54,140 bases of DNA from an uncultured Candidatus Saccharibacteria bacterium (GTDB lineage: Bacteria > Patescibacteriota > CPR2 > UBA1875 > CAIMLA01): assembly GCA_964594415.1 (NCBI GenBank), contig CAZQLQ010000006.1, positions 1 to 54,140 of the forward strand, read 5' to 3'. A model generated the notes under the pieces. It did no database searches. It was not told the DNA's origin and was given only the letters and a program-made list of their open reading frames with translations. Shown piece after piece: positions 1-26,213 of the stretch. Numbering within the stretch: position 1 is the first letter of the stretch; each line of letters begins with the position of its first letter. Position numbers and translations under genes: made by a program.

Positions 1-470
1 TATTTTGTCATCCTGAGGGAGCGGAGCGATTCGAAGGATCTAGAGATCCCTCGACAGGCTCGGGATGACCACAGCACTATAAAAAGTGCTGGGCGAAGCA
101 GAGATACAGGTAGATCCCCGCGTGCGCGAGGATGACAAGAAGGGCAGTTCTCACATTCGTTCGAACGATAACCACGTTGTCACCCCTGGCGACATTCCAG
201 GGGTCTATACAAATAGAAAATGGATTCCTGGGCTTGAGACCAGGAATGACAAAAGATAAATAATGTCATTCCCGTGAAAACGGGAATCCAGATCCCCGCG
301 TGCGCGAGGATGACAAAAAACGCTTGAAGAGTAGTTCTCGGCTTCGCCTCGAACGATATTCTTCGAGTGAAGCGAGAAGTTACCCATTTTAGTAGTTCTC
401 ACATTCGTTCGAACGATAGAAGTGTTATCCTGAAGGAGCAAAGCGATTGTAACAGACTCCTGTATCAATC
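1..470. repeat. Mosaic cluster of short palindromic REP-like repeats (BIME-like)
   Basis: Recurring units: gttctc(acattcgt/ggcttcgcc)tcgaac at 147, 334, 395; gatccccgcgtgcgcgaggatgac at ~114 and ~291; gtcattcccg..cgggaatcca at ~265; gtcatcctgag..gaaggatct at 7. Positions 1-61 are identical to 10930-10990. Confidence 0.9.
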
Positions 471-490
471 AATAATCTACCAAGATAAAC

Positions 491-937
491 TTAGATATCT
501 GTTCCGGTGATTGCCATAATAAGCATTGCGATAGCTACAAAAATTATTGCAACATAATATTGCCATGGCTGTTTTTTGTAATATAGGACACCTAAGGCTG
601 CGAAGGTAATAAGAACCCCAGATGCATAAGAAATTGCTGGCCATTGATAAAAGGTGATACCAGATCCGACCATGATAATAGCAAATGGGACCGTTAGAAA
701 TGTCGCTTTTACTAAAGTAGAAAACTTTGTCAGAAAAGTTAGGCAGCCGAATATAAGAAAGACAATAATTGCAGCAACTGGCATCTTGATTGCTGGAATA
801 TCTCCTTCTTTAATAAATAAACCTAAGAATCCAACTATTCCTGCAACCATCATAAATGCAATGATTAGTAATACGAAGCCGAAAAACAAAACCGAAATAA
901 CTGATAAAATATTCTTCTTTGTAAGATACTTTCTCAT
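491..937 (-). CDS. Hypothetical multi-pass membrane protein
   Basis: 148-aa ORF, several hydrophobic segments, SD (aggaggagg) upstream. Confidence 0.75.
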   Translation of the reverse strand: MRKYLTKKNILSVISVLFFGFVLLIIAFMMVAGIVGFLGLFIKEGDIPAIKMPVAAIIVFLIFGCLTFLTKFSTLVKATFLTVPFAIIMVGSGITFYQWPAISYASGVLITFAALGVLYYKKQPWQYYVAIIFVAIAMLIMAITGTDI

Positions 938-1200
938 AAATCGCCTCCTCCTTTACCTCTTCTGAAAATGTCAATTATTGACAAAACTATACCAATTCCC
1001 ATAAAGCTATATCCAACAACCCTGTCGTTAATGAAAAACATTCCAGCCAAGACAAAAACAAATGCGAGAGCCGATAACCTTGATAACTTTTCCCTCTTCT
1101 TTTTCCTAGTAGAGGCTACAAGGTAGGCAATAATTGCCAAGACAATAATTGATATTAGAATATATAGTTGCGAAACATTCAAAACGCCTCCTATTATCAA
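934..1200 (-). CDS. Small membrane protein (3 TM); start uncertain
   Basis: TM1, basic linker RKKKREK, two more TMs; overlaps the next gene by 4 nt. Confidence 0.7.
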   Translation of the reverse strand: MIIGGVLNVSQLYILISIIVLAIIAYLVASTRKKKREKLSRLSALAFVFVLAGMFFINDRVVGYSFMGIGIVLSIIDIFRRGKGGGDL

Positions 1201-1217
1201 TATTATAACAGATTAAA

Positions 1218-1964
1218 TCAGTGATTCGTATCGCTTGCGGGCTCTTTTATTCTTGATTTTGCCTTGACGCATTCATGATATATAGGCGCTATCTTAAATG
1301 CCAGTATGAAAGCAAATATTATTGCAAACCCACACATTATTGAGGCTATTGCTACTCTAGCAATCGGGATCAAAATATATACTAAAGTAAGCGGCAAAAT
1401 AAAAGACAGATAGCCAATTATAAACCAGAATAATGCCCTCTTTGTCATCCTTTTCTTATTATCGGACCTGATTCCACTGAGTGCTTCCCAGATACCGAGT
1501 AATAAAAATCCAAAGTAATAATAACCGTACAACGAATGAATACTTGAGTTAATATGAAAAATGATATAATTTCCGCCACAAGTGGCACCGTTTATTGTTT
1601 CGGGAACAAACACAAAAAAGGCCACAAAAGCTATTGCGATAAAAAAACCTAGTTTTAAGAATCTGGAATTTTTGTTTAGCTTAGTTATCAGGTAATATCC
1701 GAGAACTGGCAAAAAAGTGATTACGAAAAGACCGATTCTTGACCAAAACAGGGGACTCAGTCCACCACATATCTGGTATTCAGAAAGTTGAAAAATTGCC
1801 AAGAAAACAAGAGCCAAGACGATACCGACATCAGAGCCTGCCTTACGGCTTTTTATAAATACATATATTGCCAGCCCCATCTCAATAACAAACGTCGCTA
1901 TCATTATAGGCGGTGAAAAACAATACAGCGTAGTGGTTCCCTTTTCTCTATCTTTTAGATCCAT
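1218..1964 (-). CDS. Multi-TM membrane protein, resembling a stand-alone 7TM sensor (HisKA_7TM-like) domain
   Basis: 248 aa, about 7 hydrophobic helices, FQLSEYQIC motif, SD ggagg; no kinase domain. Confidence 0.65.
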   Translation of the reverse strand: MDLKDREKGTTTLYCFSPPIMIATFVIEMGLAIYVFIKSRKAGSDVGIVLALVFLAIFQLSEYQICGGLSPLFWSRIGLFVITFLPVLGYYLITKLNKNSRFLKLGFFIAIAFVAFFVFVPETINGATCGGNYIIFHINSSIHSLYGYYYFGFLLLGIWEALSGIRSDNKKRMTKRALFWFIIGYLSFILPLTLVYILIPIARVAIASIMCGFAIIFAFILAFKIAPIYHECVKAKSRIKEPASDTNH

Positions 1965-1988
1965 TTTTCCTCCAGTATTTATTTTAAA

Positions 1989-2594
1989 TTAAAATAGATA
2001 GGGAATGATTCCTCTAGCAACTAGATTTGTAATAATTAGTGCGAATGTCAGGTCGGCTAAAATAATAATTTTGTTCATCTTCACAATAGGATATTTTATT
2101 GCCGCCAAAAAAAGAATCATAATATCGTTTGGTAAAGGTAAAATGCCAATATATATAAATGCTATTACTGGAGTAGCTTTGCCCAGCCACTCTTTACTCT
2201 TAAAAAACTTGGCGAATCCGTTTATCTTTTTATCCCATTCGCCTGTTACTAACTCCCTGCCCTTCGTCCCGATATAGAACATAATCATATCTCCAATGGC
2301 CAAACTGACTCCCGCAACAATCCCCAAGATAATCGGATCGACGCCACCCGCTACGAGAGTAATAAGCAGACCGATAAAAGTCGCCGAGCCTCCCGCCGAA
2401 AAACCACCGAAAAAAGAAACAAAAAAAGCTAATATATAACTGTTATGAATGCCTATGATATCTACAATTTGAGCCGGTCCCACCAGAGACACCAAGACAA
2501 AAACTAATACTAAAAAAGCAATCAATAATATAAATTCTAGCACCCTGCTAGTATTTTTTTTATTGATAAGACCTTGATTCATATTTCCTTGCAA
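1989..2594 (-). CDS. DedA/VTT(SNARE-associated)-like membrane protein
   Basis: Hydrophobic ORF with GxAIGD-x-x-MFYIG and PLPND motifs typical of VTT domains. Confidence 0.6.
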   Translation of the reverse strand: MQGNMNQGLINKKNTSRVLEFILLIAFLVLVFVLVSLVGPAQIVDIIGIHNSYILAFFVSFFGGFSAGGSATFIGLLITLVAGGVDPIILGIVAGVSLAIGDMIMFYIGTKGRELVTGEWDKKINGFAKFFKSKEWLGKATPVIAFIYIGILPLPNDIMILFLAAIKYPIVKMNKIIILADLTFALIITNLVARGIIPYLF

Positions 2595-2697
2595 ACCACA
2601 TCTCCATAATTATAAAAAGTATATCAGAGTTTAATTCATTGAAACAGAATCAAGGCGCTTAAAATCTATAAGTAATGAGGCTATACGAACCAATGCA

Positions 2698-3471
2698 CTA
2701 CATATACGTTGTATATAGCGCATGATAGCCAAAAAGAATACAGTTAAATCTTCTTAATACCCATGCCACTAGTAAAATTCCAGCAATAAACATAAAAGCT
2801 TGCCAACCAAAATTTACTTCATCATTTTGTTTTTCCATATCTGCAAACAGGTCGTGCATAGAAATATAAAGAAACCATCCTGCCAAAATTGCCATAAAAA
2901 TTGGAACGATATTATAGATATCCTCTTTTAAATAATAACCAATTCCTGCGCCAATTATCGTTGGAATGGTCCACAAAATATTCAGCATTAGAGCCTTTTT
3001 TCTAGTTAATCCTGAATGAATTAATTTTCCAAATACCCCGATTTCGTGAGGGATGTCACTAATAGCCAAAAAAATTGCAATTCTCAGCCCGTGAGCATAA
3101 TAGGAAGCAAAAACCGCAATCAATCCCCCAAAGATTAAGTTATGAATAATACTGGTAACTCCTAGTGAATAAATAACAGATTTTGCCCCCTTATCATTCT
3201 TGCTTTCGTGTTTCTTTAGCCAAAGTTCAAAAAGAAACACGGCAGAAATAGCAACCACAAACCATACAAGAGCGACTGTATAAATAAAAGGGATCAGATC
3301 TGGAAGGATATCCAGAAGTGCAGTAGCTAGTAATACTCCAGCTAGAAGCGGAATCAGATAGCGCATAAGCTTTTTAGTTCTTTCATTATGGAACAGAACA
3401 ATTGCGCCTCCACCAACCGAAATGACTCCATTGATAAACGCAAGTCCTAAAATAGTTATAAACTCTTTCAT
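2698..3471 (-). CDS. ZIP family metal transporter
   Basis: AGVLLATALLDILP, IIHNLIFG, DIPHEIGVFG and FLYISMHDL motifs. Confidence 0.85.
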   Translation of the reverse strand: MKEFITILGLAFINGVISVGGGAIVLFHNERTKKLMRYLIPLLAGVLLATALLDILPDLIPFIYTVALVWFVVAISAVFLFELWLKKHESKNDKGAKSVIYSLGVTSIIHNLIFGGLIAVFASYYAHGLRIAIFLAISDIPHEIGVFGKLIHSGLTRKKALMLNILWTIPTIIGAGIGYYLKEDIYNIVPIFMAILAGWFLYISMHDLFADMEKQNDEVNFGWQAFMFIAGILLVAWVLRRFNCILFGYHALYTTYM

Positions 3472-3630
3472 ATCACCCTAATTGCTTTAAAATGTTTTTT
3501 AAATAGATAAAATATAATATTGATAGTTTTAGCTGCTCTAAGTTTTAGTTGATTATCAAACAAACTGAAACAAAAAATAAGTTCGTACAATCAAAAGATT
3601 GTGAGCAAAATTTACAGATAAGCCTAAAAA

Positions 3631-4395
3631 CTATTTATTACTAATCTTCTTTGCAATCCTATCTATCCCGCTATTTTCAAACGCACGGAGAACCTCTAAA
3701 GGAATAGCGAAGATAACCGTATTTGACTGATCAGAAGAGAGATCGTTTAAAGTATTAAGCGTTCTAAGATGTAGAGCACCATCGGCTTCCGATAAGGTTT
3801 TTGCGGCTTTGGCCAAATTGGTGGAAGCAATCACTTCACCTTCTGCTTTTGTGATGACCGCTCTCTTTTCTCTTTCTGCTTCTGCTTGTTTTGCTATAAC
3901 TCTCTTCATATCTTCAGGCAAAACGACATCTTTCAAGTCAACATTATCAACCTTGATACCCCAAGGATCAGTAAGTTTATCTACAATAGTTTTTATCTGA
4001 TTTGAAACACTATCTCTTTCGGAAAGAAGGGTATCTAAGTCAACCGAGCCTACAATGTTTCTCATCGTTGTTTGTGCTAACTGAGAAATCGCATAGTAAA
4101 AGTTTTCTACTTCCAAAACAGCTTTTGAGACATCATCTACTTTATAGTAAATAACCGCGTTTATACCTACCGAGATATTATCCTTAGTAATTGCTTCCTG
4201 GTTTGGAACGTCAACAGCTTTTACCCTTATGTCTACTTTCGTCATAGATTCAATAATGGGGATGATCAATCTCCACCCCGGTTCAACTATTTTCACAAAT
4301 CTTCCAAGTCTAAACTTCACCCCTCGTTGGTATTGATTTACCTGCCTGATGCTGACCAAGATTATTCCCAAGACAATTCCCAAAAAATACCACAT
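3631..4395 (-). CDS. SPFH/band 7 (stomatin-like) protein
   Basis: N-terminal TM; QEAITKDN, AQTTMRNIVG, AKQAEAERE motifs. Confidence 0.92.
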   Translation of the reverse strand: MWYFLGIVLGIILVSIRQVNQYQRGVKFRLGRFVKIVEPGWRLIIPIIESMTKVDIRVKAVDVPNQEAITKDNISVGINAVIYYKVDDVSKAVLEVENFYYAISQLAQTTMRNIVGSVDLDTLLSERDSVSNQIKTIVDKLTDPWGIKVDNVDLKDVVLPEDMKRVIAKQAEAEREKRAVITKAEGEVIASTNLAKAAKTLSEADGALHLRTLNTLNDLSSDQSNTVIFAIPLEVLRAFENSGIDRIAKKISNK

Positions 4396-4569
4396 AATAT
4401 CTCCTTTTTATGTTTTTATTATAGCACAAGCAAAAGCGAGGACAATTCTATTCTATTTTACAATTTCAACCTTATGTATAATAATTTATAAGTATACAAT
4501 CTTGTTAAAACGAAATAATATGGAAACCGACAATACTTTATCTTATTAACTTATAACCCATAAGAAGAA

Positions 4570-5442
4570 ATGAGAATAACAAGAATAGCTAGAAGCTTAA
4601 TTAAATATTTTTCTAAATATATCTATAAGATTGTTTTAGTAATAGGATTGCTCTATCTTTTTATTTTGTTAATTTCGTACTTTTATCAAGAAAAACTGAT
4701 ATTCTACCCACAACCCATAAGAGAACAAGTCGTGGAAGCGCATAAACAAAATGGGGGAAATGTAGAGGAACTGAGCATCAGAACCTCTGATGAAAACCTA
4801 CTCAACGGATGGCTTGTCAATAATACTAATCAGAAAAAAAGTCCTTTGGTAATATATTTTGGCGGAAATTCCGACGAAGTCTCATATATGATTAGCGAAT
4901 CAAGAAAAACCGAAAACTGGGCATGGGCACTTGTAAACTATAGAGGCTTCGGTGCAAGTACCGGTACCCCAAACGAAGAAAATTTGTTCAAAGACTCTCT
5001 TGCGATTTATGATCATCTATCGGCCAGGGAAGACATCGACAACGAAAAAATAATCGTTTTTGGAAGAAGCCTAGGAACTGGGGTAGCAATGTATGTTGCC
5101 CAGAACCGAAAAGTACAAGGAGCAATACTTGCTACTCCTTATGATAGTATCACTAGCGTAGCTCAAGAAAAGTATCCCCTCTTACCTATTACCTTTATTT
5201 TGAGAAATAACTTCGATTCTCTTTCGAGGGCAGAATTTATTGAGATTCCCGTTCTAATAATTGCTGCAAAAAACGATGAAGTCATACCAATTGCTCATAC
5301 TGAAAGGTTAGCCGAAGAACTAGAAGATAATTGCGACTTTAAGACAATTGAAAATACTGGACACGAAACAATTAGCGACAGTCCCTTATATTTTGACTAC
5401 ATCAATCAGTTTCTAAAACAATTTATTTCTGAGGGTACTTAG
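4570..5442 (+). CDS. Alpha/beta hydrolase (ABHD13/Bem46-like) with N-terminal TM
   Basis: YFGGN, NYRGFG, GRSLG nucleophile elbow, D-EVIP, GHE. Confidence 0.9.
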   Translation: MRITRIARSLIKYFSKYIYKIVLVIGLLYLFILLISYFYQEKLIFYPQPIREQVVEAHKQNGGNVEELSIRTSDENLLNGWLVNNTNQKKSPLVIYFGGNSDEVSYMISESRKTENWAWALVNYRGFGASTGTPNEENLFKDSLAIYDHLSAREDIDNEKIIVFGRSLGTGVAMYVAQNRKVQGAILATPYDSITSVAQEKYPLLPITFILRNNFDSLSRAEFIEIPVLIIAAKNDEVIPIAHTERLAEELEDNCDFKTIENTGHETISDSPLYFDYINQFLKQFISEGT

Positions 5443-6027: not shown

Positions 6028-6711
6028 TTATATACCGTAAAACAAGCGAATAAACCAACCAAGTAAAGTAAATCCTTCGTCCTCGGCGTCAAGCTGGTTT
6101 GCTAAATTCAGATTTTGAAGTTCTAAAACATTAATTTGATTTTGGATCTCGGTTTTGTCGCTTTCGTTACTTAGTTTTGTCATGATTTGCTGGAGTTCCT
6201 GAATCCTTAATTGATTTTGTTCCATGACTTTCTTAACTTCTTTTATCTGCTTATAGTTGGGCCCTATAAAGAATTCGGCGAATCCAGTTCTGCTTTGAAT
6301 CTTATCCATTGCCTTATTTGCATCATCTTCTGCTTGATTTTGTTCCTTTGCAATATTTCGAATTTGATCGCCAATGCCTTGATCGTTCACACGATTCGCA
6401 ACTGTGAGCATCCCCTGGACAGCTTTCGCCACTTCACTTGAACGGCTTCCGGCAGTTTCGTTTTTTACTTCGTATTTTTGTTTGGATGCCTCAATGTCTT
6501 GCTCAGTTTGGGCCTGAATCTGTTCTTCCGTTTTTGTTTGAGTTTGGATCTGAGATTCCTCGCCTTGGTTATTAGTCTGAGCTTGAACCTGGTTTGATAC
6601 GGCATTTACGCTTTTTGTAGTTGTCGCTTGATTAGCGTTATTAGAAACAGCAAACACTACTGCAGGTAACGCAAACAAAGTTAATACAACCATGGTTATC
6701 CCTTTTTTCAT
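6028..6711 (-). CDS. Secreted/anchored Q/E-rich coiled-coil hypothetical protein
   Basis: Start refined to MKKGITM after SD ggaggga; signal peptide, QTQ-rich linker, C-terminal LLGWFIRLF. Confidence 0.8.
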   Translation of the reverse strand: MKKGITMVVLTLFALPAVVFAVSNNANQATTTKSVNAVSNQVQAQTNNQGEESQIQTQTKTEEQIQAQTEQDIEASKQKYEVKNETAGSRSSEVAKAVQGMLTVANRVNDQGIGDQIRNIAKEQNQAEDDANKAMDKIQSRTGFAEFFIGPNYKQIKEVKKVMEQNQLRIQELQQIMTKLSNESDKTEIQNQINVLELQNLNLANQLDAEDEGFTLLGWFIRLFYGI

Positions 6712-6942
6712 CTTCCCTCCTTTTATTTCCATTATTATACCCCCCCCTAAATCATAATCAATATTAATTAGTCTGATTAGCAATAGTTTCCTTAAGAAAT
6801 TTGGTCAAGATTTGAAAAATAATGGGCAGAAAGACAAAGATCAGCCCTATCAACATAACGCCAGAAGAGTCATCGGTCTATACAATATAAGTAAAAAACG
6901 GCATAAACTATCACCCTGGTTGAATAACCACCATACTAGAAT

Positions 6943-7386
6943 TTATTCTTTAGATAAAGGGGTGTGAGTACGTAGGTTAACAATTATTTGAATAATTAAA
7001 AGTCCGAGCATTATCGCACCCCCCATTTGGGAGTAGTACCTCCAAGTCATTATCACAAATCCATAATTCATCGCGTAGTACAAAAATAAGTACGGTGTTA
7101 CTTGTTTCCAATATTTCTTCATATTTTCACGGAAAGGAATTTTCCATACATAGTCATAAAGATACTCCAGAGCTAGAAATGCCAAGAATATACCCAAAAA
7201 GATACTATATCGCACCGATTGCTGTTCCTGCTGAACCAAAAATATTCCATAGATAGCCGGGATTGCCAAAATGAAATAGAGTTTCCCAACCCGTTGTAAA
7301 ATAGTCATATTCTTTCGAATCAAAAAGATGAATATTAAATATAGATTATTTATTAACCCTAGAATGAAAAATAATTCTTCTAACAT
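6943..7386 (-). CDS. Hypothetical membrane protein (leaderless)
   Basis: 147 aa, about 4-5 TM; TATAAT lies 6 nt upstream of the ATG. Confidence 0.75.
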   Translation of the reverse strand: MLEELFFILGLINNLYLIFIFLIRKNMTILQRVGKLYFILAIPAIYGIFLVQQEQQSVRYSIFLGIFLAFLALEYLYDYVWKIPFRENMKKYWKQVTPYLFLYYAMNYGFVIMTWRYYSQMGGAIMLGLLIIQIIVNLRTHTPLSKE

Positions 7387-7440
7387 ACCATAATTATACC
7401 CCTTTTATGCCAAAATGTTCCAACAGCAAATTTGGTATAT

Positions 7441-7464
7441 AAAAAATGACCTTGTTAAGCCATT
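7441..7464 (-). terminator. Intrinsic terminator candidate
   Basis: aatggc-ttaacaa-ggtcatt hairpin followed by a T-run on the minus strand. Confidence 0.5.
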
Positions 7465-7469
7465 AATTT

Positions 7470-7535
7470 ATGGTGGACTACATAAGACTTCATTGGAACC
7501 AGATTGTGAAGGAGATGTCGAAATGGCAGGAACTT
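7470..7535. other. Degenerate tRNA-Ala 3'-end-like relic / conserved short coding frame, copy 1
   Basis: atggtggac..a.gact..gaacc resembles 9401-9426; the + frame reads MVDYIRLHWNQIVKEMSKWQEL. Confidence 0.5.
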
Positions 7536-7546
7536 TGCGAAGTGAT

Positions 7547-8191
7547 TCATGAAAATAGTTCCTTGATATCCTGCAACGATACGAAATTCTTATAAGCAAC
7601 CTCTTTTAAGTATTCTTCTGACGTATGGACGCTTAGCCCTTTGCCCGTAGCGATGAAGATATCAATATCATTTTCACCATCACCGACGAAATAAATATCT
7701 TTGATTGATACACCGTTCTTATCAGCGATTTCGGTGACCTGTTCAACTTTTATCTGACCCTGTTCGTGAATCCGTTGGTCAATCCTTGAAATGATTCCTT
7801 CCTCGTCAAATATTATCTCCGCATTTGAATAATAACCGTCAGGTTTTAACCTTTTCGCAATTCCTTCGACAAAGAACTTGTTTGACCCAGAAACCAAATA
7901 TATTAAGAATCCCCTGCTTCTTAAAAATTCAAATAATTCTTCAACCCCTTCTCGAACATCAACTTTTTCATAAACCTTTTTGAGATTTTCCTGGGTGGCA
8001 TTTCCACTGTCCCTCCAAATACCAACCAGTTCCCTCTCACCCTCTTCAAAAGTGATCTTCCCCGAAAAAGTATTTTGGTAAAGTTCAACGTGCTTCACTA
8101 CGGGACAGTTTAACCCTTCCGTTAATAGCAACCAGGAATTGCCATCTATTAACGTCCCATCGATATCAAAACAAATTATCTTCTTTTGCAT
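7547..8191 (-). CDS. HAD-IB hydrolase (phosphoserine phosphatase-like), leaderless
   Basis: DIDGT motif I, VSG motif II, K, GDGEND motif IV. Confidence 0.9.
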   Translation of the reverse strand: MQKKIICFDIDGTLIDGNSWLLLTEGLNCPVVKHVELYQNTFSGKITFEEGERELVGIWRDSGNATQENLKKVYEKVDVREGVEELFEFLRSRGFLIYLVSGSNKFFVEGIAKRLKPDGYYSNAEIIFDEEGIISRIDQRIHEQGQIKVEQVTEIADKNGVSIKDIYFVGDGENDIDIFIATGKGLSVHTSEEYLKEVAYKNFVSLQDIKELFS

Positions 8192-8197
8192 AACAAG

Positions 8198-8233
8198 ATA
8201 TTAACACAAAAAGAAGCATTTCTGCTTCCTTTG
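8198..8233 (-). promoter_or_regulatory. Terminator plus extended -10 promoter module, copy 1
   Basis: Hairpin gaagc-agaaat-gcttc plus T-run, then TG-T-TAATAT, 6 nt, ATG(8191). Confidence 0.7.
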
Positions 8234-8263
8234 TTTGTTCCAACCAGGTAATCTTTGGTTAAT

Positions 8264-8329
8264 TTGTTGGACTACTTGAAAAATAGTTGGAACGATTTGA
8301 TCAAGGAGTTGAGAGAATGGGAGAAGTTG
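8264..8329. other. Relic / conserved short coding frame, copy 2
   Basis: + frame LLDYLKNSWNDLIKELREWEKL aligns without gaps to copy 1. Confidence 0.5.
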
Positions 8330-8335
8330 AACCAA

Positions 8336-8974
8336 CTATACTTTAGCGGCAATCTCAGTTAACGACGCAATTTTGTTGTCTACACCCTGATACTTATTTT
8401 TTCTGTCAATCAGTAAACCCCCCATACCAAGTTTCCTTGATGCAAGAATATCATCTTCGTGGGAATCACCGACCATCAGAGCCTCCCCTGGTTCAACACC
8501 GAGCTTTTGGAGTGCTGTGTTAAATATCCGACCATCTGGCTTGATACACTTGCAATCATAAGAAGTCACAACTACATCGAACAGATTTGAGATATTATAC
8601 CTATCTTGGAGAGACTTATAGCTCGGATAACTTGTGTTTGTTACTAACCCCAACTTATATTCTGATTTTAACTCCTTCAACACGTTTAGAGTTTCAGGGA
8701 AAGGAATGGCTAATTTGTTACCCTCAACTAAAAGACTACTCAATCCATCGACTAATTCTTCTTCGGGTTTAATGTTTAAGTCATTGAGAAGATTCACAAT
8801 TGAGTCGTTCAGTGTGTCAACTTTTTCAAGCATTAAATGCTTTTCAAATTTCTTTAAAAAATCATAATCATCAAAACTCATACCAATTATATTTGCCAAG
8901 ACGCCGAAAGGGTGTGGTGTTTTGTCGGTAAAAAATAGCGTGTCCCAACAATCAAAAATAATAGCTTTTATCAT
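8336..8974 (-). CDS. HAD-IA hydrolase, leaderless
   Basis: FDCWDT motif I, VTN, KPD, GDSHEDD; start refined to MIKAIIF. Confidence 0.9.
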   Translation of the reverse strand: MIKAIIFDCWDTLFFTDKTPHPFGVLANIIGMSFDDYDFLKKFEKHLMLEKVDTLNDSIVNLLNDLNIKPEEELVDGLSSLLVEGNKLAIPFPETLNVLKELKSEYKLGLVTNTSYPSYKSLQDRYNISNLFDVVVTSYDCKCIKPDGRIFNTALQKLGVEPGEALMVGDSHEDDILASRKLGMGGLLIDRKNKYQGVDNKIASLTEIAAKV

Positions 8975-8980
8975 AAGGAA

Positions 8981-9014
8981 ATAATAACACAAAAAGAGGT
9001 ATTTCCACCTCTTT
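8981..9014 (-). promoter_or_regulatory. Terminator plus extended -10 promoter module, copy 2
   Basis: gaggt-ggaaat-acctc plus T-run, TG-T-TATTAT, 6 nt, ATG(8974). Confidence 0.7.
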
Positions 9015-9032
9015 ATTCTAGTGGTGTAATAA

Positions 9033-9203
9033 TTAGATCTTATTATTCTTAATGTATTTGAATGTTGTGATTATGATGGGTAGAAGAACGATAATAAAAC
9101 CAAGTAATGCAACGCCTGGAGCATCATCCTTTTCACCAAATTCGAGCAGTGGCGGCATTAAAAACACTAATAACAATATACTTAAAAAAATAGCTTTTTT
9201 CAT
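9033..9203 (-). CDS. Small 2-TM protein (DDAPG motif), 56 aa
   Basis: Start refined to MKKAIF; TM-GEKDDAPG-TM. Confidence 0.65.
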   Translation of the reverse strand: MKKAIFLSILLLVFLMPPLLEFGEKDDAPGVALLGFIIVLLPIIITTFKYIKNNKI

Positions 9204-9211
9204 TAATATAA

Positions 9212-9246
9212 AGAATAACACAAAAAGAGGCATTTCTGCCTCTTTT
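9212..9246 (-). promoter_or_regulatory. Terminator plus extended -10 promoter module, copy 3
   Basis: gaggc-agaaat-gcctc plus T-run, TG-T-TATTCT, 8 nt, ATG(9203). Confidence 0.65.
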
Positions 9247-9272
9247 CTTTCCAACAATTTTTTTGGTCCAAA

Positions 9273-9345
9273 TGGTGAACCCTACCCTCCTTCGTAATAC
9301 TACGGAACGGGCAGGCAGGACTTCCTCCAGAGGCGGATAAACTTC
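9273..9345 (-). pseudogene. Degenerate tRNA-Ala 3' fragment interrupted by palindromic inserts
   Basis: tggtgaaccctac-[cctccttcgtaatactacggaacgggcaggc]-aggact versus tggtggaccctacaggact at 9402. Confidence 0.55.
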
Positions 9346-9369
9346 TCGTCCTTAGCAAAATTAACCATC

Positions 9370-9391
9370 AAAAAACCCACCACGTTGGGTG
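9370..9391 (-). terminator. Terminator candidate downstream of the tRNA-Ala locus
   Basis: accca-acgtgg-tgggt hairpin plus TTTTTT on the minus strand. Confidence 0.55.
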
Positions 9392-9401
9392 AGTTGTTTG
9401 A

Positions 9402-9497
9402 TGGTGGACCCTACAGGACTCGAACCTGCCACCTCCTCGGTGCAAACGAGGCGCTCCCCGCCCGTACCGAACGGTACGTTCGGGCGGGTACCAGATG
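9402..9497 (-). pseudogene. 3' part of the outer (split) tRNA-Ala(TGC): D-loop with 32-nt insert, anticodon arm, T arm, acceptor 3' strand and CCA
   Basis: Reverse complement catctggta[32 nt]gagcgcctcgtttgcaccgaggaggtggcaggttcgagtcctgtagggtccacca; lacks nt 1-12. Confidence 0.9.
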
Positions 9498-10204: not shown

Positions 10205-10453
10205 TTACATTGCCCCAAGAGAACCGAGTAATCCGTCATAGATGTAATCAGCAACGCCAATCATCACCAGAATAGAGACAATAATCATTAGTGTGCCGAG
10301 AATTCTATAAAAAGTATAGGTCCCTGCCGGGCCAAGGTATTCCTCCGCAAATCCTATGCGAAAAGTATTATCAACAATTTGATGCGTATACGCAACAAAG
10401 CTTGTTCCGAGTGCTATACCAATAATCCCAAAGATAAACTTTCCTATTGTCAT
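10205..10453 (-). CDS. Conserved small 2-TM protein (AEEYLGPAGTY motif)
   Basis: 82 aa, SD aggagg; family recognised as common in CPR genomes (from memory). Confidence 0.75.
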   Translation of the reverse strand: MTIGKFIFGIIGIALGTSFVAYTHQIVDNTFRIGFAEEYLGPAGTYTFYRILGTLMIIVSILVMIGVADYIYDGLLGSLGAM

Positions 10454-10578
10454 ACCCCTCCTGTTGAATTAGTTTACCCGTCGAGAAAATTTCTAATTTT
10501 CTCGATAAAGGAGGAAACGCGATAAGTTGCAGTAATTTTATTATTTAAAATTATGAAACCTGCCAGCAGTTTCCGACG

Positions 10579-10655
10579 TGGTGGGCGATCGAGGACTTGA
10601 ACCTCGGACCTCGTCATTATCAGTGACGCGCTCTAACCACCTGAGCTAATCGCCC
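10579..10655 (-). tRNA. tRNA-Ile(GAT)
   Basis: 77-nt cloverleaf, anticodon arm cgtca-CTGATAA-tgacg, encoded CCA. Confidence 0.97.
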
Positions 10656-10680
10656 GTGAAATCAATTTTCAACACATAAT

Positions 10681-10709
10681 ATTTTACCAAATAAAGGGCA
10701 ATATTTCAA
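10681..10709 (-). promoter_or_regulatory. Sigma70 promoter of tRNA-Ile
   Basis: TTGAAA-17-TAAAAT about 25 nt upstream of the tRNA. Confidence 0.65.
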
Positions 10710-10765
10710 CAAGTAAGTGAGATGTACAAAAAGTCCATCGAAAGTAATATAAGGTTTAAGATGGA

Positions 10766-11230
10766 GCAGTTCTCACATTCGTTCGAACAATAAACCCCTT
10801 GAAAAACTGTTCGTCCCGAGGACCGACTATTTTAAAAAGAAGTTCAGTTTTTCTTGAACTTTGCATCACTTTCTTTCAAGAGAAAGTGAGAAAAGAAATT
10901 AGATTCTTCGACTTCGCTCAGAATGACACTATTTTGTCATCCTGAGGGAGCGGAGCGATTCGAAGGATCTAGAGATCCCTCGACAGGCTCTCCGACGGAG
11001 TCCGACACGAACTCATCGGAGTCGTCGGACGGGATGACATAGGGAAGGAGTGGATCCCTGGAATGACGCCAGGGATGACCACAGCACTATAAAAAAGTGC
11101 TGGGCGAAGCAGAGAAATAGGTAGATCCCCGCGTGCGCGAGGATGACATAGGGAAGGAGTGGATCCCTGGAATGACGCCAGGGATGACAAAAAACATTAT
11201 AAAAGTAGTTCTCTGATTCGCCTCGAACAT
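10766..11230. repeat. Second mosaic cluster of REP-like palindromes
   Basis: Same units as 1-470; direct repeat of about 40 nt (catagggaaggagtggatccctggaatgacgccagggatgac) at ~11038 and ~11146; 10795-10839 matches 54087-54131 with one mismatch. Confidence 0.9.
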
Positions 11231-11264
11231 GATTGGCATTGTAAAGATGCGGGGGTAAACAATT

Positions 11265-11293
11265 AAAAAACTCCACACAAGGCGGAGTTTTTT
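11265..11293 (-). terminator. Bidirectional-type terminator just downstream of the 16S processing stem
   Basis: aaaaaactcc-acacaaggc-ggagtttttt. Confidence 0.7.
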
Positions 11294-11297
11294 CGGC

Positions 11298-12938
<1,641 letters not shown>

Positions 12939-24044: not shown

Positions 24045-26213
24045 TTATGCTCCACTTTTCTTTTTTTTGCCAAAATAAACTGAAAGAAACGAAAGATAAA
24101 CTATTGTCAGAAACGCCAGAATTTGCATCTTGAATTTACCCAGCATAGACAAAAAGTTGTTAGAATCGTTTGTCTGACTAATCGTATTAACACCAAGAAC
24201 GCTACTTCCTCCATCCTGGTTGCTGTTGCTTGATGCCAGAAGAACTGCATTGTTATCATTATCAGGTAATATATTTTCTAACGCTATTGATCCGTCTACA
24301 GGAACCTTCACACCTGCCGAAGTGAATATTTTAAACACACTTGAGTCAACTGGTTCAGTAGAAATATGGATTTCTGTAGGAATTTGGGTAATCACTTGCG
24401 TTGTTGCAGTAGTTTGCGCTACCTCTTTTTCTACATCTATGTTTCCATCCCAGTCCCCAAAGATATTTACTACCAGGAATACGAACTTTTTAGCCACTAC
24501 ATTAACATTCATAATGTTTGCGATGTTGGCAAGTACATTAGAGTCACCTGTTGTTATATTCCCGTTTCCGGTATTATAGTCTGCCTTGTTATCGCCGGTG
24601 TTTGCAGTGATTGAAATATTATTAGACAAAACTCCTTCATTTTCGTTGTCTATATCAATTAAGCTTGATGCATCTACCGTTGCCGTATTTTCTGACTCGG
24701 CTCCGGTATTTTCGTTAGAAGCTGCAAGGTTGCAAACATTTTCACTATCACAACCGTTATTTACTATCCCTAGATAAGGAGACAGGAGATTTTCTCCTGA
24801 CCATTGACCCGCTACATTTACTATGAAGAAAAATATAGTATCTCCTATCAAGTTTTGATTTAAAAGGTTGCTTACACTCAATTCCGTGTTTACGTCACCA
24901 GTTTGGACCGAACCACTACCAGTATTATATCCGCTTGTGTTATCACCTGTATTATTAGCAATCTTAATATTATTTAAGACTTCTGCATTATTATCGTTAT
25001 CGATATCTAGTGCATTATTTACGTTCGCTGAAGATATATTACTCGAATCAAATCCTGTGTTTTCATTACCTGCAGTTATCGCACCACCGCTATTATTTGA
25101 ATTAATCGAATTCCCTGCCAGGCTTTTTGGTATCAATAAGTCCCCTAGCCAATCCCCAAAAATGTTTAATACGCCAACAACCCCAAGATCAGAAGCAGTA
25201 AAGGAGCTGTTAATGAAATTTAACAAGTTCAGCGATACATTAGAGTCACCAGTAGTTACGTTGCCGTCGCCTGTATTGTAACTGGCGTCATTATCGCCTG
25301 TATTTGATTCGATATTAAAATTATTTGAAGCGTTCGCATCATTATCGTTATTCACAAACGTTGAGTTGTTAGTATTGATAATGGCCGAGTTAGTAGATTC
25401 GGCACCTGTATTTTCGTTTTCTGCACCAACCCTACTACCAGTCAAGGTATATTTTTCACCAGAATTAGGGTCAACGAGATAATTACCAAATAGATTCCCT
25501 GCAACATTTTCAAAAAGGAGTTTTATCTCTCCACCAGGGAGTGCAACAAAAGCGGTATTAATCATATTTAGAATAGAGAGAATTATATTTGAATCCCCTG
25601 TCTTCACGCTTCCGCTACCCGTATTGTAGTTGGCATCGTTATCTCCGGTATTTGAAGAAACAACAAGGCCATTATTTACTTCCGCCTGATTATCGTTATT
25701 TACCACTAGTTTGCTAGCATCCAATACAACCGCCTCGTTCACTGAACCCGCTCCAGTATTTTCGTTACTAACGCCAGACTCTGTTGATTCGGATCCGCTT
25801 CCTTCAGCTAAAGTAGGAATAGTTTGTCCCGACTCAGCTCCCAGATCTCCCGCAACCTCTTCATTTAGAGGACAGGACTCTGATGGATTAGCGGTAGACG
25901 AACCAGTATCTGCCGTAGGAGCCGTATTTTCGGTAGGATTGCTTGTACCCTGGGTATCGCCGGTAGTTCCCGAATTTGTTTCCTCGCTCCCAGGCAAAGC
26001 AGGAGCTGTTGGCGAGACTGGAGTCTCAGGTGCTGTCGGAGCTACTATGACTTTCGGGGTAGTAGTTGGCGTAGTCGGTAATGCTGGACGGACTGGAGCC
26101 GCAGGCAATTGAGGAGCCTCCGAGAAGGCAAGACCTAAAGGAGCCACAACTAACAAAACAGTCACAAAAGCTGTGCCTAATCTTTTTAATCTTATTAATA
26201 ATCTTGTATTCAT
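24045..26213 (-). CDS. NTG-repeat protein 2: signal peptide, P/T-rich region, 4 repeats, C-terminal TM
   Basis: Four copies of NENTG-x-x-S-x-N...NTGDN-x-x-x-YNTG-x-G-x-V-x-TGD. Confidence 0.85.
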   Translation of the reverse strand: MNTRLLIRLKRLGTAFVTVLLVVAPLGLAFSEAPQLPAAPVRPALPTTPTTTPKVIVAPTAPETPVSPTAPALPGSEETNSGTTGDTQGTSNPTENTAPTADTGSSTANPSESCPLNEEVAGDLGAESGQTIPTLAEGSGSESTESGVSNENTGAGSVNEAVVLDASKLVVNNDNQAEVNNGLVVSSNTGDNDANYNTGSGSVKTGDSNIILSILNMINTAFVALPGGEIKLLFENVAGNLFGNYLVDPNSGEKYTLTGSRVGAENENTGAESTNSAIINTNNSTFVNNDNDANASNNFNIESNTGDNDASYNTGDGNVTTGDSNVSLNLLNFINSSFTASDLGVVGVLNIFGDWLGDLLIPKSLAGNSINSNNSGGAITAGNENTGFDSSNISSANVNNALDIDNDNNAEVLNNIKIANNTGDNTSGYNTGSGSVQTGDVNTELSVSNLLNQNLIGDTIFFFIVNVAGQWSGENLLSPYLGIVNNGCDSENVCNLAASNENTGAESENTATVDASSLIDIDNENEGVLSNNISITANTGDNKADYNTGNGNITTGDSNVLANIANIMNVNVVAKKFVFLVVNIFGDWDGNIDVEKEVAQTTATTQVITQIPTEIHISTEPVDSSVFKIFTSAGVKVPVDGSIALENILPDNDNNAVLLASSNSNQDGGSSVLGVNTISQTNDSNNFLSMLGKFKMQILAFLTIVYLSFLSVYFGKKKKSGA

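What the first reader, a model, noticed from the sequence alone, without database searches (positions are those of the whole stretch)
6943..9400. Integrase-free cassette array downstream of tRNA-Ala
Seen, on the minus strand: the order relic, terminator, promoter, 1-2 short genes repeats three times (relic 9273 with genes 9203 and 8974; relic 8264 with gene 8191; relic 7470 with gene 7386). Known: tandem islands leave repeated tRNA 3' fragments. Inference: here the units are only ~0.8-1 kb and carry no integrase, suggesting serial capture of tiny gene cassettes at a tRNA, integron-like in effect.
Basis: inference. Interest (0 to 1): 0.65.

Follow-up and report, generated by a model that had tools for sequence, protein, structure and literature searches.

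The report
Serine-recombinase scar cassettes behind tRNA-Ala
The short gene units behind this alanine tRNA gene are real: they are bounded by footprints of mobile elements that a large serine recombinase inserts at the very end of tRNA genes, and the recombinase itself is gone from this tiny (Patescibacteria-type) genome, so the stretch is a fossil gene-import hotspot, not an integron.

Summary
Relic, terminator hairpin and 1-2 short genes repeat three times at the stated coordinates, well beyond chance. The relics are of two kinds.

- **Relics 8264 and 7470** share only the last 8 nt (GTCCACCA) with the tRNA. The rest is the cut-off last 22-40 codons, read antisense, of a large serine recombinase (LSR) gene whose attP lies inside its own 3' end. 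Relatives show the intact gene (G020) and a complete attL/attR pair (G023).
- **Relic 9273** is a displaced tRNA-Ala 3' end fused to a 32-nt arm. The same arm also sits behind tRNA-Pro and tRNA-Asn in this genome.

The repeated "terminator + promoter" module is the native sequence that follows intact tRNA-Ala(UGC) in sister genera. The module after 7470 follows tRNA-Ala(GGC) in a same-order relative.

Close homologues of both HAD genes (92% and 84% identity) lie on other contigs with the same tail. Homology stops exactly at the core. In one contig the HAD2 unit sits directly behind tRNA-Ala.

No serine recombinase gene is left in the 863-kb genome.

Verdict: a recombinase-less array of att-bounded cassettes. 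It most resembles cis-mobilisable elements (CIMEs) and the Dehalococcoides ssrA islands. How the units moved is inferred, not shown.

The parts
9402..9497 (-). 3' part of the disrupted tRNA-Ala(UGC). Its last 8 nt, GTCCACCA (9402-9409), are the recombination core.
   Evidence: ARAGORN and Rfam. 49-nt direct repeat. Core shared with all tail relics.
9364..9405 (-). Strong terminator hairpin directly after the tRNA.
   Evidence: (I7), 79 and 80: -22.9 kcal/mol, z -4.2.
9273..9353 (-). Relic of type 2, made of four pieces:
- a 32-nt arm, AAGGACGAGAAGTTTATCCGCCTCTGGAGGAA (9322-9353)
- GTCCTG (9316-9321)
- a 30-nt insert (9286-9315)
- GTAGGGTTCACCA (9273-9285)

It is a displaced tRNA-Ala 3' end.
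   Evidence: Sequence. The same arm is fused to the 3' ends of tRNA-Pro (C1:20186-20235) and tRNA-Asn (C3) in this genome. Homologous relics occur in G001 and G018.
9204..9272 (-). Alpha flank, copy 1: TTTGGACC...TTGGAA, GNRA hairpin 9222-9247, TTTTTGTGTTATTC.
   Evidence: Aligns with the sequence that directly follows intact tRNA-Ala(UGC) in G004, G001:C9 and G007:C2.
9033..9203 (-). 56-aa membrane-protein ORF (cargo).
   Evidence: Only a weak DUF2975 hit.
8975..9032 (-). Partial alpha flank: hairpin 8993-9014 + TTTTTGTGTTATTATT, ahead of HAD1.
   Evidence: fold of 8984-9030: z -2.0, marginal.
8336..8974 (-). HAD-superfamily hydrolase 1 (HAD_2 type), cargo.
   Evidence: Pfam. An 84%-identical homologue with the same tail lies on another contig.
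8264..8362 (+). Severed LSR gene tail 1 (LLDYLKNSWNDLIKELREWEKLNQLYFSGNLS*), antisense to the array. Its core on the minus strand is GTCCAACA (8265-8272). It overlaps the HAD1 stop.
   Evidence: (E 7e-10). 92% DNA identity to a G007 tail. Homology with L064 ends at the core.
8192..8264 (-). Alpha flank, copy 2: AATTAACC...TTGGAAC 8237-8243, GNRA hairpin 8213-8228, TTTTTGTGTTAATAT.
   Evidence: About 90% identical to the flank that follows the tRNA-Ala 3' end in L063.
7547..8191 (-). HAD-superfamily hydrolase 2 (HAD-IB / phosphoserine-phosphatase-like), cargo.
   Evidence: Pfam. Absent from the 27 other genomes of the order. A 92%-identical homologue lies directly behind tRNA-Ala in L063.
7470..7595 (+). 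Severed LSR gene tail 2 (MVDYIRLHWNQIVKEMSKWQELCEVIHEN...). Its core on the minus strand is GTCCACCA (7471-7478). It overlaps the HAD2 stop.
   Evidence: E 3e-12; aligns to residues 504-532 of the intact 538-aa LSR of G020. Homology with L063 ends at the core.
7387..7470 (-). Beta flank: hairpin TAATGGCTTAACAAGGTCAT, ATATACC, TTGGAAC 7417-7423, TATAAT.
   Evidence: The same module follows intact tRNA-Ala(GGC) in G012, and follows tails in G001, G002 and G020.
6943..7386 (-). 147-aa multi-pass membrane ORF with no family hit. It is the first gene after the last scar.
6764..6900 (-). Possible degenerate second copy of the 56-aa gene, with an in-frame TAG. Weakly supported.
   Evidence: alignment score z about 2.7; 14 of 30 residues identical.
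6028..6735 (-). Conserved 235-aa secreted coiled-coil protein. It marks the far end of the variable stretch.
   Evidence: 68% identical orthologue 1.8 kb behind tRNA-Ala in G004.

Best explanation
The stretch is a recombinase-less array of small gene units. Each unit is bounded by attachment-site scars left by site-specific integration at the 3' end of tRNA-Ala.

**The recombinase.** A family of large serine recombinases (LSRs), common in this order of Patescibacteria, carries its attP inside the last ~30 codons of its own gene. It recombines at the ...GTCCACCA end of tRNA genes.
- At attL, integration joins the body of the recombinase gene to the antisense tRNA.
- At the far end it leaves attR = severed gene tail + 8-nt core + the tRNA's native downstream flank.

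**Reading of the window.**
- Relics 8264 and 7470 are attR junctions of this type.
- The repeated hairpin/promoter module (alpha flank) is the native flank of tRNA-Ala(UGC).
- The module after 7470 (beta flank) is the flank of tRNA-Ala(GGC).
- Relic 9273 is the tRNA's own displaced 3' end. It was pushed away by a second kind of small insertion that crosses over in the T-loop.

**Order of the array** (tRNA orientation): tRNA | terminator + type-2 scar | alpha-56aa-HAD1-tail | alpha-HAD2-tail | beta-147aa...

**Shown:** the identity of the scars, the identity of the flanks, breakpoints at the cores, and the absence of any LSR gene.

**Inferred:**
- The units were delivered by LSR elements through tandem accretion and excision at alternative att sites (cis-mobilisation). 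In this route the element leaves and the unit next to it stays.
- Each flank now serves as terminator plus promoter for the next gene.
- The array is at present frozen.

**Confidence.** The figure of 0.75 is for the whole statement. For the scar identity alone I would give about 0.9. For the accretion route alone I would give about 0.5.
For: **1. The tails are 3' ends of LSR genes.**
- 21 copies from 9 genomes share MVD[YC]xxxxWNxxVKELxEWxxL and are open over 22 codons.
- A profile built from them hits the C-terminus (residues 504-524) of an intact 538-aa protein in G020 (E 8e-6; sequence).
- That protein has Resolvase + Recombinase + Zn_ribbon_recom domains.
- The window tails align to its residues 503-532.

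**2. A complete example exists in G023:C2**.
- tRNA-Glu | LSR body ...KKSS|LVARRGIEPLLPG*, where the tail is read from the antisense tRNA.
- Then 7 kb of cargo.
- Then the severed tail LVDYLRFNWNSLIKELLEWQRLQVEFGV* + GTCTACCA.

**3. attL junctions at tRNA-Ala** occur in G020, G002 and G023:C39.
- Four further LSRs (G031, G007:C19, G001:C1, G024) end in tRNA-antisense peptides such as GLEPTT.
- The G020 tandem array shows an LSR that carries a foreign tail.

**4. The flanks are native tRNA flanks.**
- The alpha flank follows intact tRNA-Ala(UGC) in G004, G001:C9 and G007:C2. It also follows tRNA-Val(GAC) in G002.
- The beta flank follows tRNA-Ala(GGC) in G012.

**5. Breakpoints lie at the cores.**
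- L063 (HAD2 92% identical) is about 90% identical to the window to the right of the core. To the left of the core it has tRNA-Ala where the window has an LSR tail.
- At the other end, homology runs through HAD2 and the tail and stops at the core.
- L064 (HAD1 84% identical) shares HAD1 + tail and diverges at the core.

**6. The same architecture carries other cargo.**
- A 590-bp tail|alpha-GNAT-tail cassette in G007:C55.
- A HAD2 homologue in a cassette with a tRNA-Glu-type core.

**7. The two window tails are nearer to tails of other genera than to each other.**
- Protein level: 82% and 68% against 41%.
- DNA level: 86% and 92%.

**8. Variable gene content.** The genes between tRNA-Ala and the conserved 235-aa gene are entirely different in G004. 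HAD2 is absent from the rest of the order.

**9. No LSR or Resolvase-domain gene** is present in the genome.
Against: - No remnant of an LSR body lies in the window. Simple 'integrate, then decay' would be expected to leave some.
- Every internal core is followed by a target-type (B') flank, not by an element-type arm. Canonical attP x attB integration at the tRNA does not produce that by itself. It needs either alternative-site excision or action of the recombinase on attR-type sites. Neither is demonstrated.
- Codon-position statistics on the tails are not decisive: position 2 is the least variable, but position 3 is not the most variable.
- The cargo genes have ordinary G+C content (0.37-0.38 against a genome mean of 0.377). 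Composition therefore gives no sign of foreign origin.
- L063 starts inside the tRNA sequence. Its left end could be a long tRNA relic rather than the live gene.
- The assembly has 21 contigs. A recombinase-bearing element could have been left out of the bin.
Confidence: 0.75

Rival explanations
1. A serine-recombinase counterpart of an integron. Recombinase-less one- or two-gene circles [flank-gene-tail] carry a single tail-core-flank site. An LSR supplied in trans by a passing element excises and re-inserts them one at a time at the tRNA core.
For: - Every unit begins with a promoter-bearing flank and ends with tail + core. This is exactly what circle x site recombination would give.
- The same gene family (HAD2) sits in such units at a tRNA-Ala core and at a tRNA-Glu-type core.
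- Tail types and flank types assort independently.
- Units are very small: 590-1140 bp.
Against: - LSRs as known recombine attP x attB, or attL x attR with a directionality factor. Recombination of attR-type sites with attB is not known.
- Accretion with alternative-site excision gives the same products without new enzymology.
Confidence: 0.18
2. Local tandem duplication. The units arose in place by unequal crossing-over of one ancestral [flank + gene + relic] unit and then diverged. The relics are inherited, not separate insertion scars.
For: - In G018 the array behind tRNA-Ala holds paralogous genes (MEPEKKHKYLPV...) with about 90% identical flanks. That looks like duplication or gene conversion.
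- Three copies of the hairpin module lie within 1.1 kb.
Against: - The window's genes are unrelated to each other: two different HAD subfamilies and membrane proteins.
- The two tails are 41% identical to each other but 68-82% identical to tails in other genera.
- One unit carries an alpha flank and the other a beta flank.
- L063 and L064 show each unit with different neighbours.
Confidence: 0.04
3. The repeats are functional host elements: conserved terminator/promoter or RNA modules, or small antisense proteins. Selection keeps them between genes, and they have no link to mobile DNA.
For: - The modules are conserved at 74-92% DNA identity across genera while the neighbouring genes are not.
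- The hairpins show compensatory changes.
- The mini-ORFs are open.
Against: - No Rfam family matches.
- TTGGAAC is not a general promoter word in this genome: 146 found against 108 expected, and few in a promoter context.
- The 'peptide' is the C-terminus of a recombinase.
- Some copies carry stop codons (G018c and G029b).
- The flanks are simply what follows tRNA-Ala genes.
Confidence: 0.03

Closest known systems
Dehalococcoides ssrA-specific genomic islands with the serine recombinase DsiB (McMurdie et al. 2011, PMC3146451)
   Same: - Tandem islands downstream of a tRNA-like gene, each bounded by a repeat of its 3' end.
- The integrase is a serine recombinase whose gene always overlaps attL at its 3' end. 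The authors suggest it may be complete only on the circle.
- Some islands lack the integration module and were proposed to be cis-mobilisable.
   Different: - The target here is a true tRNA, and the crossover is at the CCA end, not in the T-loop of tmRNA.
- Only 8 nt are repeated, not 20.
- The arm next to the repeat is a conserved, recognisable protein tail.
- The units are 0.6-1.1 kb with one or two genes, not 10-30 kb.
- No integration module is left anywhere in this genome.
CIMEs and site-specific accretion (ICESt1/ICESt3 of Streptococcus thermophilus; review by Guedon et al. 2017, PMC5704250)
   Same: - Elements that have lost their integration and transfer genes but keep attL/attR.
- They are stacked in tandem at the 3' end of a target gene.
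- They can be mobilised together with an incoming element.
   Different: - Those systems use tyrosine integrases and long att identity.
- Here the recombinase is an LSR with an 8-nt core.
- Mobilisation has not been shown.
SSV-type 'suicidal' integrases and gene capture in archaea (She et al. 2001; review PMC8371274)
   Same: - attP lies inside the integrase gene.
- Integration at a tRNA gene cuts the gene.
- Trapped elements accumulate next to tRNA genes.
   Different: - Those are tyrosine recombinases of archaea, and their gene is split near its 5' part.
- Here the enzyme is a bacterial serine recombinase that loses only its last ~30 residues.
Myxophage Mx8 IntP/IntX (from my own knowledge and scan note e1-5200557; not read here)
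   Same: - A bacterial integrase whose attP lies within its own coding sequence.
- Integration at a tRNA gene changes the C-terminus of the protein.
   Different: - It is a tyrosine recombinase.
- It is a single prophage, not an array of recombinase-less units.
Integrons
   Same: The effect is similar: a row of small gene units separated by recombination sites next to a fixed entry point.
   Different: - No intI, attI or folded attC sites.
- The cassettes carry their own promoters.
- The sites are hybrids of a recombinase-gene tail and a tRNA flank.
Tandem tRNA-gene islands as catalogued by Islander (Hudson et al. 2015, PMC4383910)
   Same: A tRNA gene plus co-oriented 3' fragments that mark island ends.
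   Different: - Islander requires a tyrosine integrase in each island.
[quoted passage not shown]
- Here the fragments are 8 nt long and the enzyme is a serine recombinase.

Membership tests
Integron | intI tyrosine integrase gene next to the array | tested here: not met
   The genome has one tyrosine recombinase, on contig C12 and far from the array. There is none in the window.
Integron | attC sites: imperfect palindromes that fold as hairpins and bound promoterless cassettes | tested here: not met
   The boundary repeats are a recombinase-gene tail + 8-nt core + tRNA flank. Each gene has its own hairpin/-10-like module.
attR scar of a large serine recombinase element | The element-side arm is homologous to the attP arm of a real LSR element | tested here: met
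   The tails match the C-terminal coding end of the intact G020 LSR and the severed tail of the G023:C2 element.
attR scar of a large serine recombinase element | The target-side arm equals the sequence that follows the unoccupied target | tested here: met
   The alpha flank follows intact tRNA-Ala(UGC) in three sister genera. The beta flank follows tRNA-Ala(GGC) in G012.
attR scar of a large serine recombinase element | The matching attL (target + recombinase body) exists for the same family and target | tested here: met
   G020:C36, G002:C19 and G023:C39 at tRNA-Ala; G023:C2 at tRNA-Glu. None is present in the window itself.
attR scar of a large serine recombinase element | The recombinase catalyses attP x attB at these sites | not testable with these tools
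   This needs a recombination assay.
CIME (cis-mobilisable element) | Bounded by att sites and lacking its own integration and transfer genes | tested here: met
   Cores lie at 9402-9409, 8265-8272 and 7471-7478. No recombinase is present in the window or the genome.
CIME (cis-mobilisable element) | Derived from, and mobilisable with, an autonomous element by accretion | tested here: inconclusive
   A tandem LSR array with tail swapping exists in G020. Units occur in different contexts.
Tandem tRNA-gene islands (Islander sense) | Each island has its own tRNA fragment and its own tyrosine integrase | tested here: not met
   No integrase lies in any unit. The fragments are 8 nt long, except in relic 9273.

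The most novel reading that the evidence does not exclude
Patescibacteria run an integron-like gene-exchange system on a large serine recombinase. In this reading, recombinase-less one-gene circles are excised and inserted one by one at tRNA 3' ends. Each circle carries a promoter-bearing tRNA flank and the recombinase's own detached gene tail as its two site arms. The enzyme that moves them is supplied by passing elements. That enzyme gene is itself cut and re-capped by every recombination, which would act as a built-in directionality switch.
Probability: 0.18. Interest if true: 0.8.

Novelty: new variant of a known kind. Interest (0 to 1): 0.5.

Why it matters
**A gene-import route in ultra-small bacteria.** These bacteria have reduced genomes and no known conjugation. 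This array shows a concrete route by which they gain accessory genes: serine-recombinase elements that use tRNA 3' ends. A standard catalogue (Islander, 2015) states that this target class is unknown for serine recombinases.

**A searchable marker.** The scars are recognisable because each still encodes the enzyme's detached tail. That gives a simple marker for imported genes, and for past integration events, in genomes that no longer hold any recombinase.

**A possible tool.** The short sites (an 8-nt core with defined arms) and the self-truncating gene could be of use as recombination tools, if the directionality idea holds.

**For this window specifically.** The result mostly explains away an apparent 'integrase-free' mechanism.

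Tried and rejected
**Readings rejected**
1. *The relics are decayed tRNA T-arm/acceptor minihelices used as RNA punctuation.* No 5' partner for the acceptor strand exists, and Rfam gives nothing.
2. *Xer/dif-like sites.* There is no dif-type dyad.
3. *The mini-ORFs are N-terminal stubs of a gene.* I held this reading until one search showed that the motif is a C-terminal tail.

**Tests that did not help**
4. Codon-position and synonymous/non-synonymous counts on the 22 tail copies were inconclusive.
5. TTGGAAC as a general -35 word was not supported.
6. G+C content of the cargo genes is ordinary.
7. Exact-protein look-ups for HAD2 and the neighbouring hydrolase found nothing.
8. A metagenome scan anchored on the 82-aa ORF between tRNA-Ile and tRNA-Ala found one distant relative only.
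10. The sortase cassette shared by G001 and G007 looked like a clean breakpoint in BLAST. On alignment, the homology continues through the flank, so I do not count it as a breakpoint.
11. The second copy of the 56-aa gene at 6764-6900 is only weakly supported.


Full report
**Setting.** The window is a whole 54-kb contig of an 863-kb assembly with 21 contigs and 37.5% G+C. The assembly is a Patescibacteria-type genome. On the minus strand lie, in order:
- 16S rRNA;
- tRNA-Ile;
- an 82-aa membrane ORF;
- a tRNA-Ala(UGC) gene that is broken by a 453-bp GIY-YIG + spare-tRNA insertion;
- the stretch in question.

Other agents have treated the GIY-YIG insertion (scan notes e1-5110311 and e1-5110313).

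**Observation.**
- The motif GTTCCAA-N-GTCCAMCA occurs twice, against 0.01 expected.
- A 59-nt module (GNRA-loop hairpin, then TTTTTGTGTTA, then ATG after about 12 nt) occurs three times with compensatory stem changes.
- Terminator-like sites are enriched, 7 against 2.0.
- Sigma-70-type promoter matches are not enriched, so the promoter part is inferred.

**What relics 8264 and 7470 are.**
- The two relics belong to a homologous module of 70-140 nt.
- A DNA search of 40 related genomes gave 74-92% identical copies of these modules. The copies are often multiple and co-oriented with a tRNA-Ala gene, while the genes between them were not conserved. Pattern matches are, and the alignment is.
- On the opposite strand all copies read MVD[YC]xxxxWNxxVKELxEWxxL.
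- I first took this peptide for an N-terminus. A profile search in the order then showed the same motif at residues 504-524 of an intact 538-aa protein in G020.
- That protein has Resolvase, Recombinase and Zn_ribbon_recom domains. It is therefore a large serine recombinase (LSR), and the 'relic peptide' is its C-terminal tail.

**Proof of mechanism in relatives.** G023:C2 holds a complete integrated element.
- At one end, tRNA-Glu abuts the 3' end of a 515-aa LSR gene. The last 13 residues of that LSR (LVARRGIEPLLPG) are read from the antisense tRNA.
- 7 kb away lies the severed tail LVDYLRFNWNSLIKELLEWQRLQVEFGV*, joined to GTCTACCA.
- attP therefore lies inside the 3' coding end of the recombinase gene. 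Integration at the CCA end of a tRNA cuts off the last ~28 codons.

Further cases:
- The same attL junction at tRNA-Ala is seen in G020:C36, G002:C19 and G023:C39.
- Four more LSRs end in tRNA-antisense peptides.
- G020 carries a tandem array, tRNA-Ala | LSR-A ... | tail + LSR-B ... | tail | flank. LSR-B wears a tail of another subtype, and a tail of its own subtype sits at the far end.

**What the 'terminator + promoter' modules are.**
- The thrice-repeated module (alpha flank: TTTTGACC...GTTGGAAC, GNRA hairpin, TTTTTGTGTTA) is the sequence that directly follows intact tRNA-Ala(UGC) in three sister genera: G004, G001:C9 and G007:C2. It also follows tRNA-Val(GAC) in G002.
- The module after relic 7470 (beta flank) follows tRNA-Ala(GGC) in G012.
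- Each relic plus its flank is thus a full attR: element arm (tail), core, target arm.
- Tail subtypes and flank types assort independently. That is expected if the two arms have separate histories joined at the core.

**Relic 9273 is a different kind of scar.**
- It keeps GTCCTG and GTAGGGTTCACCA of the tRNA, separated by a 30-nt insert. A 32-nt arm precedes it.
- The same arm is fused to the last ~18 nt of tRNA-Pro and of tRNA-Asn just downstream of those genes in this genome.
- The alpha flank follows it. I therefore read it as the original tRNA-Ala 3' end, displaced by a small insertion that crosses over in the T-loop.
- What made that insertion is not resolved.

Protein searches nevertheless found close homologues of both HAD genes on short public contigs.

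| Contig | Gene and identity | Finding |
|---|---|---|
| L063 | HAD2, 92% | Reads ...GGCAGGTTCGAGTCCTGTCGGGTCCACCA \| alpha flank - HAD2 - tail - ATCCACTA \| a different terminator, then YggT and DUF218 |
| L063, left end | | To the right of the core it is about 90% identical to the window. To the left it is tRNA-Ala where the window has LSR tail 8264 |
| L063, right end | | Homology runs through HAD2 and the tail and ends at the core |
| L064 | HAD1, 84% | Shares HAD1 and tail 8264 and diverges at the core |
| L060/L061 | HAD2 homologue, 78% | Sits in a unit with a tRNA-Glu-type core and a degenerate tail |
| G007:C55 | GNAT | A 590-bp tail \| alpha - GNAT - tail unit |

Relative to L063, the window carries an extra 1.14-kb unit inserted exactly at the tRNA core. 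The newest unit lies nearest the tRNA.

At coarser scale, G004 has tRNA-Ala - alpha - [ECF sigma, anti-sigma, 160 aa] - orthologue (68%) of the window's 235-aa gene. The window has the 56-aa, HAD1, HAD2 and 147-aa genes in that position. HAD2 is absent from the other 27 genomes of the order.

**No recombinase.** tblastn with the G020 LSR, a class-wide search, and a Resolvase-family search all find nothing in this genome. The only tyrosine recombinase is on contig C12.

**How the units came to lie here (inferred).** Plain attP x attB integration at the tRNA would put recombinase-gene sequence, not a tRNA flank, after each internal core. Two routes give the observed form.
- *Route A: accretion and alternative-site excision, as for CIMEs.* An element excises from a previous host with a distal attR and so takes along the neighbouring [flank-gene-tail]. 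It integrates here. It later leaves through the proximal attR, and the unit stays behind.
- *Route B: direct action of the LSR on tail-core-flank sites.* This is the integron-like route.

I favour route A because it needs no new enzymology. The data do not separate the two.

**Comparison with what is known.**
- The nearest described case is the Dehalococcoides ssrA islands (PMC3146451). These are tandem islands behind tmRNA. Their serine recombinase gene always overlaps attL, and some integrase-less islands were proposed to be cis-mobilisable.
- CIME/accretion is reviewed in PMC5704250.
- attP inside the integrase gene, with gene capture at tRNAs, is known for archaeal SSV-type tyrosine integrases (PMC8371274). 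From my own knowledge it is also known for myxophage Mx8.
- Islander (PMC4383910) states that serine recombinases are not known to target tRNA genes. I found no later paper that describes this family.
- After I had reached this reading, the scan's notes showed that other agents had reached the same reading in other genomes. These notes are AI notes, not independent proof.

**Verdict.**
- It is half wrong: two relics are not tRNA fragments, the mechanism is not integrase-free, and the array is not an integron.
- The window itself holds only scars and cargo.

Noticed in passing
own genome C2:877-4200 (outside the window): A second scar array lies behind tRNA-Asp(GTC). The tRNA's downstream flank (AATAGAACAGACTTAATAAGC...TTTCTATTAATGACGCAAA) recurs at about 1680, 2295, 2925 and 4110. 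Each copy is preceded by ...(C/T)TCGCCA and followed by TTTTTGTGTTA + a short gene.
   Followed up: partly
window 9322-9353; own genome C1:20186-20235 and C3 ~25500-25560: A 32-nt arm, (G)AGAAGTTTATCCGCCnnnGGCGGAA, is fused to the last ~18 nt of whichever tRNA precedes it (Ala, Pro or Asn), only 13-80 nt behind the intact tRNA. It looks like a T-loop-crossover scar of a tiny insertion. The agent that made it is unknown.
   Followed up: partly
own genome, downstream of about 15 of the 46 tRNA genes (for example window 10470-10578, after tRNA-Ile): A conserved element of about 100 nt (CGTCAGCGATAGCTGACGCC...AAAATTATAAATTTTT) directly follows many tRNA genes.
   Followed up: no
L011 (G018:C2) 1-4520: Behind tRNA-Ala lie at least five paralogous membrane-anchored proteins (MEPEKKHKYLPVLITVF...) with variable C-terminal domains. 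Each is preceded by a nearly identical tRNA flank and followed by an LSR tail. This looks like tail-bounded units amplified or homogenised in place.
   Followed up: partly
window 10205-10453: An 80-95-aa two-pass membrane ORF between tRNA-Ile and tRNA-Ala is conserved across the order (G018, G008, G004 and G023). No 23S rRNA follows the tRNAs.
   Followed up: no
L033 (G020:C36) 3558-4637 and 10365-12438: The LSR elements stacked behind tRNA-Ala in G020 carry a group II intron-type reverse transcriptase, a cytosine DNA methyltransferase with a partner gene, and an XRE-family regulator.
   Followed up: no
window 7500-7530 compared with L063 770-800: Within the tail behind HAD2, the half next to the gene is about 90% identical between the window and L063. 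The half next to the core is much more diverged and belongs to another tail subtype. This may be a recombination point inside the tail, at GGTTCCAATGA.
   Followed up: no
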